From a virus: DNA of 39,693 nucleotides. Positions within the stretch are counted from its first letter, which is position 1. Each line of letters opens with the position of its first letter. Made by a program: the position numbers. The stretch lies in the UHGV virus genome UHGV-0150678; one strand, given 5' to 3'. Positions 9,801 to 12,800 of the stretch are shown here, in pieces.

Positions 9801-12800
9801 CTTTCTGAAAGCACATCAAACCAAATACCAGACAGACAAAAATAATCACCTTATCCGCTGTGGCTACGGTGCGGTGTGCTTTGCATAAAAGAAAACCAGC
9901 GCAATGGCTGGCTTCGTGAAAGCGGGTGGCATGAGGTTGCGCTAACAACCTCCTGCCGTTTTGCCCGTGCATATCGGTCACGAACAAATCTGATTACTAA
10001 ACACAGTAGCCTGGATTTGTTCTATCAGTAATCGACCTTATTCCTAATTAAATAGAGCAAATCCCCTCAATGAAGGGGTAGAGCATGTACCGTATGGACA
10101 AAATCAGAGAATGGTTCAGTTACAGCTTCGGAGGACTGACTGCGATGGGTGGCATTCTCTCCCTGAATGACTGGGCTGTCATCATTGGTATTCTTTGTAC
10201 TGTCGGCACATTTGGCATCAACTGGTACTACAAGCGCAAAGAGCGCGAGGACAGATTGAATGGCAATGTCACCGGCACTACGAAATAGCGTAATAGCGGC
10301 GATAAGTGGCGGGGCTATTGCTATAGCATCTGTGTTAATCACTGGACCAAGTGGTAACGATGGTCTGGAAGGTGTCAGCTACATACCATACAAAGATATT
10401 GTTGGTGTATGGACTGTATGTCACGGACACACCGGAAAAGACATCATGCTCGGTAAAACGTATACCGAAGCAGAATGCAAAGCTCTCCTGAACAAAGACC
10501 TTGCCACGGTCGCCAGACAAATTAACCCGTACATCAAAGTCGATATACCGGAAACAACGCGCGGCGCTCTTTACTCGTTCGTCTACAACGTGGGGGCTGG
10601 CAATTTCAGAACATCGACGCTTCTTCGCAAAATCAACCAGGGCGATATCAAGGGCGCATGTGACCAGCTGCGTCGCTGGACATACGCTGGCGGTAAGCAA
10701 TGGAAAGGGCTGATGACCCGTCGCGATATTGAGCGTGAAGTCTGTTTGTGGGGGCAGCAATGAGCAGGTTAACCGCGATTATCTCCGCTCTGGTTATCTG
10801 CATCATCGTCTGTCTGTCATGGGCTGTTAATCATTACCGTGATAACGCCATTACCTACAAAGAGCAGCGCGATAAGGCCACATCCACAATCGCTGATATG
10901 CAGAAGCGTCAACGTGATGTAGCAGAACTCGATGCCAGATATACAAAGGAGCTTGCTGATGCTAACGCGACTATCGAAAGTCTCCGTGCTGATATTTCTG
11001 CTGGTCGTAAGCGCCTGCAAGTCGCTGCCACCTGTGCAAAGTCAACGACCGGAGCCAGCAGCATGGGCGATGGAGAAAGCCCAAGACTTACAGCAGATGC
11101 TGAACTCAATTATTACCGTCTACGAAGTGGAATCGACAGAATAACCGCGCAGGTTAACTACCTGCAGGAGTACATCAGGGCGCAATGCCTTCGATGATAA
11201 CGATAATTTTACTCATCATCCTTCACATCTGGCTCTGTAGACAGGGTGGTGATCACTTCTGGAGTGAATCCAGATTAAACATCTCATTGCTGATGCTTGA
11301 TATTGAGCATCTGGCGCGCGGTAAGGGGCTGCGTTGAGATAAGAGCCAGTCATCACAAACACCAGGATTTAGCCTCGCATTCGCGGGGTTTTTTTATTCC
11401 CAACTCCATAGGTAATTTTATGACCCAGCATATTGGCGTAAAACTGATTAACGCCTTTCCGATGACGAGACAGGCATATAACGATTTTCGTGGCTGGCAG
11501 CTTCCTGCCGGAGAAAACGGCGAGGACGAAGGCTATCTGGTTGAATATCTGGATGGCGGAAAACCTAACACCGATCGCTTTGATGGCTACGTTAGCTGGA
11601 GTCCAAAAGAAGTATTCGAAAAGGCTTATCGTCCGGTATCAGGGCTAAGTTTCGGCCTTGCCATGGAAGCGTTAAAACAGGGCAAAAGTTTGCAGCGGGC
11701 AGGATGGAATGGGAAAGATCAGTTTGTTTATCTCGTGAAAGGAGAAAAATTAGCGTCTGCGTTGGGTTATGGCTTTGGCGAATATGTTGGCGAGCCAACT
11801 TTCAATGACACGCTTGTATTGAAAAACTCACAGAACCGCCTTGCTACATGGGCTCCATCCATTGGCGACCTGATGGCTGAAGACTGGCAAATCATTTAAC
11901 CATGTAGGCATTACAAAGCCTATACCTTAATGATCACGATATTGAAGTAATGGACCGCCAAACGAAGAGAGATATCCTATCACATAACAAATCGTTGCAG
12001 GAGAACTGCAAATTATAAATTAGCGAAGATCATGCAATGGAAAAAAATGAATGTTCGAACTGATAAAGAATTAATGTCTTCAGTTAAGAAAGAGGACGTT
12101 TCTCATTTAAAGAAAATTAAGCGATGCAATGAGTACCATTTCAAAAAGCCGGGTGTTAAACCCGACCTGAATAATCATTCCAGCGGTTCTACTGGATCTG
12201 TCTTTGCTCGTGATGCGAATTGAATGAGCGCCAAAAGAGCCGAACGCATTTTTACATACTCTCTGCTTTTTACAACCTCTGACATATGCTCAGTGACATT
12301 AATATTGGCTGAGCAATACCCTTCCTTTGTTGGAACCGATATTTCCACTTTCATACCTTGATCTATCAGGCCACCCAAAATTCGCAGAGGCTCTGGTTCG
12401 ATCAAAGCAGATACGCGGTTTTTGTCTACGGGTTGAAAGCAGAGTGATGATCCATCATAACGGATTAGAACTCCACTCCGATCAGGACGCATCTCTGGTC
12501 CTATATCCAGAATTCGCCATCCGCAATACCAAGTGCGGCAAACAGAAGGGCGTTCATCATAAATTGCACATCCTCCCTGATGTTTAAGGTGCTGGCATGG
12601 GATGTCAGCCAACTTTTTTAACGTTGGCTGTTCAATTCGTAGCGAAGTGCAGCACACAGAGCATGAACCGCACTTTCTGTTTTTGATTAGTAATTTTTCT
12701 AAACTCATTGGGCATCTCCCAAAGGTAATTAAATGGCACTCACCGACAAGCAAGAAATGTTCTGTCGCGAGTACCTCATCGATTTAAACGCCACGCAAGC

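What the first reader, a model, noticed from the sequence alone, without database searches (positions are those of the whole stretch)
12141..12753. Antisense CxxCxxCC-motif gene with its own terminator in the bor slot
A 177-192-aa ORF on the minus strand, opposing the late operon, sits where lambda carries bor. It has the motif CGSCSVCC plus CAIYDERPSVCRTWYC, matching the YkgJ/UPF0153 putative Zn/Fe-binding family; this is not a known phage structural or lysis function. Its start lies about 25 bp from the divergent terS start, and a short hairpin with a T-run follows its stop on the minus strand, consistent with an autonomous unit expressed in lysogens. The flanking 11900-12250 interval is AT-rich (by eye), consistent with horizontal acquisition.
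Basis: partly seen in the sequence, partly recalled or inferred. Interest (0 to 1): 0.6.

Follow-up and report, generated by a model that had tools for sequence, protein, structure and literature searches.

The report
Antisense cysteine-cluster gene beside phage terminase
A real, well-conserved prophage accessory gene for a small metal-binding (eight-cysteine) protein of unknown function sits backwards between the lysis and DNA-packaging genes, paired with a tiny overlooked gene on the other strand. It is a mobile cargo module, not a new kind of system, and this copy lacks the upstream control region its relatives have.

Summary
A 177-aa ORF (12175-12708, minus strand) with CGSCSVCC and CAIYDERPSVCRTWYC lies 24 bp from the divergent terS start and is followed by a hairpin plus T-run. 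The window is a P22-like prophage at argW, identical to E. coli SCU-124. RefSeq already names the gene "YkgJ family cysteine cluster protein".

Family assignment is supported but borderline: Pfam PF03692 scores 21.1 bits against a cut-off of 23. A profile-profile comparison with YkgJ orthologues gives 85% probability (E 6e-6). The protein has eight conserved Cys, a confident predicted fold with no solved relative, and dN/dS of 0.08-0.14.

New findings:
- The gene belongs to a ~800-bp module (11923-12721) that sits antisense between lysis and terminase genes in seven lambdoid prophage backbones (six terminase gene sets).
- The module carries a convergent ~60-aa late-strand ORF (12032-12223) that overlaps its 3' end. 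This ORF and its SDxxLM motif persist down to 36% identity of the partner protein.
- The terminator hairpin shows compensatory changes.
- The window copy lacks the conserved upstream element of its relatives and has no recognisable promoter. Other prophages hold unrelated antisense genes at the same position against terS.

The function is unknown. The best guess is a lysogen-expressed moron arranged like phi80 tai/ati.

The parts
12175..12708 (-). CDS of the 177-aa YkgJ-like Cys8 protein (ATG 12708, TGA 12175-12177). The N-terminal ~65 aa form the cysteine-cluster domain. It is followed by the YCGWR and RPDRSG motifs and a C-terminal alpha/beta domain.
   Evidence: RefSeq WP_001525208.1.
12716..12720 (-). 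Shine-Dalgarno GGGAG of the YkgJ-like gene, 7 nt before the ATG. It lies back-to-back with the terS SD (AAGG, 12722-12725, plus strand).
   Evidence: Sequence read directly. The same back-to-back layout occurs with unrelated cargo genes in L154-L156.
12142..12167 (-). Intrinsic-terminator-like hairpin (stem 12148-12154 with 12160-12166, up to 8 pairs including G-U) plus a run of five T (plus-strand A 12143-12147). The G-U pairs make it strand-specific for the leftward transcript.
12032..12223 (+). Convergent small ORF on the late-operon strand (63 aa from ATG 12032, or 58 aa from ATG 12047). It overlaps the last 49 nt of the YkgJ-like CDS and contains the terminator hairpin. It carries the conserved N-terminal motif [ST]Dx2LM. 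RefSeq does not annotate it.
   Evidence: Gene callers called it in L138, L145 and L149. Only 3 clusters exist in the 5.8-billion-protein set.
11923..12018 (+). Remnant of a foreign o-spanin lipoprotein gene: the last ~31 codons, ending ...DRQTKRDILSHNKSLQENCKL*. It marks the left end of the imported module.
   Evidence: Complete 70-83-aa lipoproteins with a lipobox occupy this place in L006, L008 and L140.
11923..12721 (.). Extent of the DNA module shared with other prophages (72-92% nucleotide identity). The right junction is at 12718-12721. Homology to other prophages carrying this terS type reaches the junction from the right: 12721 in 16 E. coli records, and 12700 in one (L154).
12733..13260 (+). 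terS (Terminase_2), the divergent neighbour. Any promoter for the YkgJ-like gene in this copy must lie inside its 5' part.

Best explanation
SHOWN
- The ORF is a real, intact gene under purifying selection. It encodes a 177-aa cytoplasmic protein with eight conserved cysteines.
- The protein belongs to a distinct two-domain branch of the CxxCxxCC (YkgJ/FliB/DpdM) metal-cluster superfamily.
- The gene travels in a ~0.8-kb module together with a convergent ~60-aa late-strand ORF that overlaps its 3' end.
- In every enterobacterial prophage examined, the module lies antisense to the Q-dependent late operon, between the lysis cassette and the terminase genes.

INFERRED
- It works as a moron in a "non-contiguous operon", like lambda bor or phi80 tai/ati.
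- The Cys-cluster protein would be made from a leftward transcript in the lysogen, which ends at the hairpin just after the stop codon.
- On induction, antiterminated late transcription would run through the locus against the gene. That would damp its expression and express the small SDxxLM protein, a candidate partner or antagonist.
- Biochemically the protein probably holds one or two Fe-S/Zn centres. By analogy with the only two characterised relatives (FliB and DpdM, both N-methyltransferases), it may modify a macromolecule. The target is unknown.

THIS COPY
- The upstream control segment seen in relatives has been replaced by terS.
- Transcription, if any, must start inside terS. The same holds for the unrelated cargo genes found at this position in other prophages.
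For: - Gene reality and selection: (dN/dS 0.08-0.14).
- Superfamily: Pfam PF03692 E 5e-4 for the window protein, and 32 of 43 family members hit it at E<=1. hhalign against YkgJ orthologues gives 85%, E 6e-6, aligning seven of the eight Cys.
- Structure: confident two-domain model, pLDDT 92.5.
- Position and orientation: constant in backbones with P22-type, HK97-type, lambda Nu1-type, DUF2280/Terminase_6C, Terminase_2+TerL_ATPase (Rahnella) and Hendrixvirinae-type terminases, plus a Providencia contig that shows only the lysis side.
- Module limits.
- Terminator with covariation.
- Small ORF kept open, with the SDxxLM motif, in lineages where the partner protein is only 36-57% identical.
- Cargo slot: three other E. 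coli prophages carry unrelated antisense genes 19-22 bp from the same terS type, each with its own SD.
- Experimental precedent for this layout: phi80 tai/ati (PMC11364771).
- Fe-S chemistry and methyl transfer in relatives: FliB (PMC8598068) and DpdM (bioRxiv 10.1101/2023.04.13.536721).
Against: - No promoter is recognisable upstream in the window, and the conserved 17-nt upstream element of relatives is missing.
- No transcript data were available.
- There is no hit to any known defence family (PADLOC) or NCBIfam model.
- The Pfam score is below the gathering threshold.
- There is no homology to Tai/Ati.
- The small ORF shows only moderate constraint (dN/dS 0.3-0.7 over few sites). Its C-terminal frame differs between lineages, and it lies 3' of the gene rather than 5' as ati does.
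- Distant family members are chromosomal and sit in unrelated metabolic contexts. The fold therefore implies no phage-specific role.
- The prophage annotation shows no preQ/dpdA genes, so a DpdM-type role is unlikely.
Confidence: 0.5

Rival explanations
1. Silent passenger in this prophage. Recombination that joined the module to terS removed the gene's promoter/operator. The window copy would then be an intact but unexpressed ORF that has not yet decayed.
For: - Homology to relatives stops at -10/-13.
- The 17-nt upstream element is absent.
- No promoter-like site lies upstream.
- The segment is rare, in 5 of 5426 complete E. coli genomes, and all copies are 99.9% identical or better, which suggests a recent event.
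- Truncated 105-111-aa versions exist in databases (P0012, P0015, P0017).
Against: - The ORF is intact, and dN/dS against its closest relative is 0.08.
- The SD is retained exactly at the junction.
- Four other unrelated antisense genes sit 19-22 bp from this terS type, each with an SD, which argues that this position is expressed.
- The frameshifts in the Shigella copy L020 also hit terS, so they look like assembly errors.
Confidence: 0.2
2. Prophage defence gene with late-expressed self-immunity. The Cys-cluster protein would block superinfecting phages in the lysogen, and the small SDxxLM protein, made from the late operon, would neutralise it during the prophage's own lytic growth. This is a sharper form of the best explanation.
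For: - The position and orientation match phi80 tai/ati, where lysogen expression of Tai and Q-dependent damping were shown.
- The gene and the small ORF co-occur strictly across divergent lineages.
- The neighbouring gene is Tad2-like, an anti-defence family, so this is an arms-race locus.
Against: - No PADLOC hit and no homology to Tai/Ati.
- The partner is convergent, not divergent.
- The family also occurs in chromosomal metabolic operons.
- No experiment exists.
Confidence: 0.2
3. Lysogenic-conversion enzyme acting on a host component. For example, a FliB-like Fe-S/SAM N-methyltransferase that modifies a surface or cytosolic host protein, changing host physiology or receptor properties.
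For: - FliB, which carries a related cysteine motif, is a [4Fe-4S]- and SAM-dependent lysine methyltransferase.
- DpdM, described as a YkgJ homologue, methylates an amine in DNA.
- The position matches that of the conversion gene bor.
Against: - FliB is reported to use a CX4CX3CC motif and, from my own knowledge, is about 400 aa. Here the motif is CX2CX2CC in 177 aa.
- No member of the family hits DUF3109.
- SAM binding cannot be tested here.
Confidence: 0.1

Closest known systems
E. coli YkgJ / Pfam PF03692 (CxxCxxCC, UPF0153) putative Zn/Fe-chelating domain
   Same: It has the CxxCxxCC motif plus GCxIYxxRPxxCR and further conserved cysteines. hhalign gives 85% probability, E 6e-6, over 52 columns. 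The PGAP name is the same.
   Different: The Pfam score of 21.1 bits is below the gathering score of 23. The protein is longer (177 against 109 aa). It has extra YCGWR and RPDRSG motifs and a C-terminal alpha/beta domain. It is prophage-borne. YkgJ itself has no known function.
Salmonella FliB, flagellin lysine N-methyltransferase ([4Fe-4S], SAM) (PMC8598068)
   Same: It has an N-terminal cysteine motif ending in CC and eight conserved cysteines in all. The paper itself links the motif to PF03692.
   Different: FliB has CX4CX3CC spacing. From my own knowledge it is about 400 aa and is encoded in the chromosomal flagellin locus.
Phage DpdM (DUF3109), dPreQ1 N-methyltransferase (bioRxiv 10.1101/2023.04.13.536721)
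   Same: It is phage-encoded, is described as a YkgJ homologue, has two predicted Cys4 metal pockets that share the CC pair, and has a fold with no solved relative.
   Different: DpdM has a CxxxCxxCC motif and co-occurs with dpdA and preQ1 genes, which this prophage lacks. No family member hits DUF3109 at E<=1.
phi80 taiEcA/atiEcA non-contiguous operon (PMC11364771)
   Same: An antisense gene interrupts the Q-dependent late operon just upstream of the packaging module, with a small late-strand companion that overlaps it.
   Different: There is no sequence homology (hhalign 0.3%; BLASTP none). ati overlaps the 5' end of tai (divergent), whereas here the small ORF overlaps the 3' end (convergent). 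No anti-phage activity has been shown here.
Lambda bor (and lambdap78): leftward genes between Rz and cos
   Same: Same genomic slot and same orientation against the late operon.
   Different: Bor is annotated as a Bor-like outer membrane protein. The window protein has no signal peptide and carries a cytoplasmic metal-cluster domain. The two are not homologous.

Membership tests
Pfam PF03692 CxxCxxCC / YkgJ family | N-terminal C-x2-C-x2-C-C motif | tested here: met
   C13-G-S-C16-S-V-C19-C20, conserved in at least 90% of 43 family members.
Pfam PF03692 CxxCxxCC / YkgJ family | Further conserved cysteines downstream, including the CxIYxxRPxxC block | tested here: met
   C38, C47, C57 and C62 are invariant. 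C38, C47 and C57 align with YkgJ C58, C71 and C81.
Pfam PF03692 CxxCxxCC / YkgJ family | Whole-protein HMM score at or above the curated gathering score (23 bits) | tested here: not met
   21.1 bits, E 5.3e-4. 32 of 43 relatives hit at E<=1; the best E is 2e-4. Precomputed Pfam is '-' for all homologues except P0027, which carries PF02810 (SEC-C), not PF03692.
Pfam PF03692 CxxCxxCC / YkgJ family | Profile-profile homology to bona fide YkgJ orthologues | tested here: met
   hhalign A1 against A3: probability 85%, E 6.2e-6, 52 columns. The support is moderate and limited to the Cys-rich domain.
Pfam PF03692 CxxCxxCC / YkgJ family | Binds Fe-S or Zn | not testable with these tools
   Needs purified protein (UV-vis, EPR, ICP-MS).
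FliB-type flagellin lysine methyltransferase | CX4CX3CC motif in a protein of about 400 aa encoded next to flagellin genes | tested here: not met
   The motif is CX2CX2CC, the protein is 177 aa, and the context is a prophage late region. The ~400-aa size and flagellin-locus context of FliB are from my own knowledge.
DpdM / DUF3109 dPreQ1 methyltransferase | DUF3109 match, CxxxCxxCC motif, and co-occurrence with dpdA and the preQ1 pathway | tested here: not met
   No DUF3109 hit in any of the 43 members at E<=1. The motif spacing differs. The prophage has no dpdA or que genes.
Moron / lysogenic-conversion unit (bor-like) | Sits between lysis and packaging genes on the strand opposite to the late operon | tested here: met
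   True in the window and in seven other backbones. Lambda reference.
Moron / lysogenic-conversion unit (bor-like) | Own terminator | tested here: met
   Hairpin plus T-run with compensatory changes.
Moron / lysogenic-conversion unit (bor-like) | Own promoter | tested here: inconclusive
   Relatives have a conserved 17-nt element and a TATTGT/TATTTT hexamer upstream. The tool's sigma-70 consensus scan found no promoter on the gene's strand upstream of the ATG in L006 or L008. The window has none of these and no sigma-70-like site within 300 bp.
Moron / lysogenic-conversion unit (bor-like) | Expressed in the lysogen | not testable with these tools
   No transcript data were available.
Tai/Ati-type defence in a non-contiguous operon | Antisense gene interrupting the Q operon upstream of packaging genes, plus a small late-strand companion | tested here: met
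   The companion here is convergent, not divergent.
Tai/Ati-type defence in a non-contiguous operon | Sequence homology to Tai or Ati | tested here: not met
   hhalign probability 0.3%. BLASTP finds no alignment.
Tai/Ati-type defence in a non-contiguous operon | Anti-phage activity and its neutralisation by the companion | not testable with these tools
   Needs phage challenge assays.

The most novel reading that the evidence does not exclude
The YkgJ-like protein and the convergent SDxxLM mini-protein form a previously undescribed two-gene prophage system. A lysogen-expressed Fe-S (possibly methyl-transferring) enzyme would act on incoming phages or on a host macromolecule. The late-operon mini-protein, together with antisense read-through, would switch it off during the prophage's own lytic cycle. 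The system would be exchanged as a plug-in cassette at a terS-adjacent cargo slot.
Probability: 0.2. Interest if true: 0.7.

Novelty: new member of a known kind. Interest (0 to 1): 0.4.

Why it matters
If it is expressed, this would be another lysogen-side cargo gene of lambdoid prophages, from a protein superfamily whose only characterised members carry out unusual Fe-S-dependent N-methylation. The strict pairing with an unannotated small late-strand ORF gives a concrete, testable two-component hypothesis. The variety of unrelated antisense genes pressed against one terS type marks a cargo slot worth mining for defence or conversion genes. As it stands, the finding mainly confirms an existing RefSeq annotation and adds comparative anatomy. 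No function has been established.

Tried and rejected
1. The 192-aa TTG start at 12753 is rejected. Homologues start at the ATG and DNA homology ends at -10.
2. Known-family searches gave nothing decisive. PADLOC and NCBIfam had no hit. PHROGs gave only phrog_9155 of unknown function. Rfam had no hit in 11000-13400. No flanking repeats were found.
4. Homology to phi80 TaiEcA/AtiEcA is rejected.
5. Lambda lambdap78 has the same length (177 aa) but is unrelated.
6. A DpdM-like role is unlikely, because the prophage has no deazaguanine genes.
7. The frameshifted Shigella copy (L020) is not evidence of decay. Similar single-base indels also hit terS, so they are probably assembly errors.
8. A conserved cellular neighbourhood was sought. 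The hydantoinase/CoA-transferase operon link occurs in only one alphaproteobacterial lineage, and my crude neighbour calls were otherwise heterogeneous.
9. Promoter hunting within terS gave only TTGACA-15-TACGGT (12862..12836) and a TTTAAT hexamer at 12728-12733. Neither is convincing.
10. The small ORF has no match in cultured phages and only 3 clusters in the large protein set.
11. No literature on this phage subfamily was found.
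Full report
CONTEXT
The window is a P22-like prophage integrated at tRNA-Arg (argW/intS). It is 100% identical over the tested segments to E. coli SCU-124 (NZ_CP051706.1). The late operon runs on the plus strand: Q, holin, lysozyme, Rz/Rz1, a 50-aa ORF, a Tad2-like/DUF2829 gene (11420-11899; Pfam PF11195, E 2e-21), then terS (12733-13260, Terminase_2), terL, portal and so on. The finding lies between the Tad2-like gene and terS.

OBSERVATION
- A minus-strand ORF runs 12175-12708 (ATG, 177 aa). 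The TTG extension to 12753 is not used. Relatives all start at the ATG, which has a GGGAG Shine-Dalgarno 7 nt upstream.
- The motifs CGSCSVCC and CAIYDERPSVCRTWYC are there. Together with C38 they make eight (nearly) invariant cysteines.
- The start codon is 24 bp from the divergent terS ATG.
- Eight nucleotides after the stop lies the hairpin GGUCGGGU/ACCCGGCU followed by UUUUG (-13.7 kcal/mol, z -2.8).
- GC content falls to 0.37-0.39 at 11800-12300.

IS IT A GENE, AND OF WHAT FAMILY?
- RefSeq/PGAP already calls it "YkgJ family cysteine cluster protein", WP_001525208.1.
- Full-length homologues of about 177 aa occur in Citrobacter, Rahnella, Providencia, Leclercia and many metagenomes.
- A profile search of 1.84 billion representatives finds 7201 clusters at E<=1e-3 and 244 at E<=1e-30. 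Among the best 150, lengths are 139-244 aa and nearly all align over the whole ~180-position profile.
- dN/dS against nine distinct relatives (ten loci; dS was saturated for the two most divergent) is 0.08-0.14.
- Pfam PF03692 matches at E 5e-4 but scores 21.1 bits, under the 23-bit cut-off. 32 of 43 relatives hit the same model at E<=1 (best E 2e-4), and no other family matches more than three of them.
- A profile-profile comparison with an alignment of true YkgJ orthologues gives 85% probability, E 6e-6. It aligns the CxxCxxCC block and the CxIYxxRPxxCR block.
- I therefore accept superfamily membership of the N-terminal domain. The protein is a separate branch, with YCGWR and RPDRSG motifs and a C-terminal alpha/beta domain.
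- PADLOC, NCBIfam and Rfam give nothing.

COMPARATIVE ANATOMY
This is where the picture changes.

(i) Constant placement. The gene is always antisense between the lysis cassette and the terminase genes. This holds in prophages with quite different packaging modules:
- P22-type in the window
- HK97-type, Terminase_4/TerL_ATPase plus HNH (L136)
- lambda Nu1-type (L138)
- DUF2280/Terminase_6C (L140-143)
- Terminase_2/TerL_ATPase in Rahnella (L145)
- Hendrixvirinae-type (L148)
- a Providencia contig showing only the lysis side (L147)

(ii) Module limits. DNA homology between the window and these loci runs from 10-13 bp upstream of the ATG to about 215-250 bp beyond the stop. That is window 12718/12721 down to about 11923.

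(iii) The 3' extension is not spacer.
- It holds a plus-strand ORF (12032-12223, 63 aa) that converges on the gene, overlaps its last 49 nt and contains the hairpin.
- An equivalent ORF, with the motif [ST]Dx2LM near its N-terminus and a basic/aromatic block about 20 residues later, is open in every enterobacterial-phage relative examined. That includes lineages where the big protein is only 36-57% identical.
- Its dN/dS is 0.3-0.7 over few sites, and only the N-terminal ~38 residues are conserved.
- Gene callers seldom annotate it.

(iv) A spanin remnant. Left of the small ORF, 11923-12018 is the C-terminal ~31 codons of a foreign o-spanin lipoprotein gene. That gene is complete in L006, L008 and L140. 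The window phage has its own Rz/Rz1.

(v) The hairpin covaries across lineages. Three pairs show double changes. 94% of cells are paired, against 61% or less in slid controls. No shuffle reaches the observed covariation score. Its G-U pairs make it specific for the leftward RNA. Rahnella has a different hairpin plus T-run at the same place.

THE 5' SIDE
- Relatives share a further 80-145 bp upstream. It includes a 17-nt element, TGTGTWTTTATCAGGAT, exactly at -86..-70 in 18 loci. The element is invariant between lineages whose coding DNA differs by 25%. A TATTGT/TATTTT hexamer lies 22 nt after it. The tool's sigma-70 consensus scan found no promoter on the gene's strand upstream of the ATG in L006 or L008, so reading this element as a promoter or operator is my inference.
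- The window lacks all of this, with 0 matches at up to 3 mismatches. Upstream of -10 the sequence is the terS ribosome-binding site and coding region.
- No sigma-70-like promoter is recognisable within 300 bp. This copy is therefore not demonstrably autonomous.
- The tight junction is not a one-off accident, however. Three other E. coli prophages with the same terS type carry unrelated antisense genes (151, 72 and 182 aa) 19-22 bp from the terS ATG, each with its own SD back-to-back with the terS SD. L006 has a 203-aa gene there, followed by the YkgJ-like gene.
- None of these cargo proteins has a Pfam or PADLOC hit, and none is related to another.
- This recurrent layout suggests a cargo slot served by transcription that starts inside terS. 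That is an inference.
- In E. coli the YkgJ-like module is rare, in 5 of 5426 complete genomes. No cultured phage in INPHARED has a close homologue.

MECHANISM
What is shown:
- an intact, selected gene for a Cys8 protein of the CxxCxxCC superfamily
- a strand-specific terminator
- a conserved convergent mini-ORF
- a fixed antisense position in the late operon

What is inferred:
- The arrangement is a "non-contiguous operon" of the kind demonstrated for phi80 taiEcA/atiEcA. There the antisense gene upstream of the packaging module is expressed in the lysogen. Q-driven late transcription lowers it, and a small late-strand gene counteracts it (PMC11364771).
- There is no sequence homology to Tai/Ati, and here the small gene is 3'-convergent rather than 5'-divergent.
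- For chemistry, the only characterised relatives are FliB and DpdM. FliB is a [4Fe-4S]- and SAM-dependent lysine N-methyltransferase with eight conserved Cys (PMC8598068). DpdM is a phage dPreQ1 N-methyltransferase described as a YkgJ homologue with two predicted Cys4 pockets.
- The window protein plausibly binds one or two Fe-S/Zn centres and may catalyse a related modification.
- It fails the specific FliB and DpdM criteria on motif spacing, size and context. No family member hits DUF3109, and the prophage has no dpdA or que genes.
- Distant chromosomal relatives sit in unrelated contexts. One example is translational coupling to a hydantoinase A/B fusion in one alphaproteobacterial lineage. 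The fold itself therefore does not imply a phage-specific role.

VERDICT
- The family assignment is essentially right and is already in RefSeq.
- The bor-slot analogy and the horizontal mobility are right.
- The "autonomous unit expressed in lysogens" claim is unproven and, for this copy, weakened by the missing upstream region.
- The added value is the two-gene module, the covarying terminator and the terS-adjacent cargo slot.
- Function remains unknown.
- Interest is moderate (0.4). The finding is a new member of a known kind (antisense late-operon moron; CxxCxxCC superfamily).
- The most novel reading not excluded is a new defence or modification enzyme with a late-expressed antagonist, at about 20% probability.

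Noticed in passing
window 11420-11899 (+): The gene just left of the module is a Tad2-like/DUF2829 protein (Pfam PF11195, E 2e-21; phrog_872), the family of the Thoeris anti-defence protein Tad2. It lies in the late operon after the lysis genes.
   Followed up: partly
window 11923-12018 (+): The C-terminal ~31 codons of a foreign o-spanin lipoprotein gene (…DRQTKRDILSHNKSLQENCKL*), with no start or lipobox. It is a scar of the recombination that brought the module in. The phage keeps its own Rz/Rz1 at 10748-11197.
   Followed up: yes
L154 2554-3009, L155 2271-2489, L156 1934-2482, L006 5223-5834: Other prophages with the same terS type carry different, mutually unrelated antisense genes (151, 72, 182 and 203 aa) 19-22 bp from the terS start codon. 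None has a Pfam or PADLOC hit. This looks like a cargo slot with back-to-back ribosome-binding sites.
   Followed up: partly
L006 5915-5931 and 17 other loci (absent from the window): A 17-nt element, TGTGTWTTTATCAGGAT, lies exactly at -86..-70 of the YkgJ-like start codon. It is invariant across lineages whose coding DNA differs by 25%, so it is probably a promoter or operator element with an unknown binding factor.
   Followed up: partly
window 12591-12609 (+) and 11371-11390 (+): Terminator-like hairpins with T-runs lie on the late-operon strand. One is inside the YkgJ-like coding region about 120 nt before terS, and is also present in L006. The other lies between the 50-aa ORF and the Tad2-like gene. 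They could gate non-antiterminated transcription, or they could be by-products of coding sequence.
   Followed up: no
window 21250-21795 (+) (offset): A NUMOD4-domain (homing-endonuclease-like) gene is inserted among the P22-type head and ejection-protein genes.
   Followed up: no
L105 6001-8258; L126, L151, L153 around 2400-6550: An alphaproteobacterial MAG has four tandem paralogues of this family. In another lineage a family member overlaps the stop codon of a 1200-aa hydantoinase A/B fusion, in an operon with a CoA-transferase and a TPP enzyme.
   Followed up: partly
L154 about 2474 and L156 about 1859 (+): On the late strand, an ORF fragment starting MAKPDWEAIE overlaps the 3' end of the antisense cargo genes in both prophages. 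It may be a remnant of a displaced late gene.
   Followed up: no
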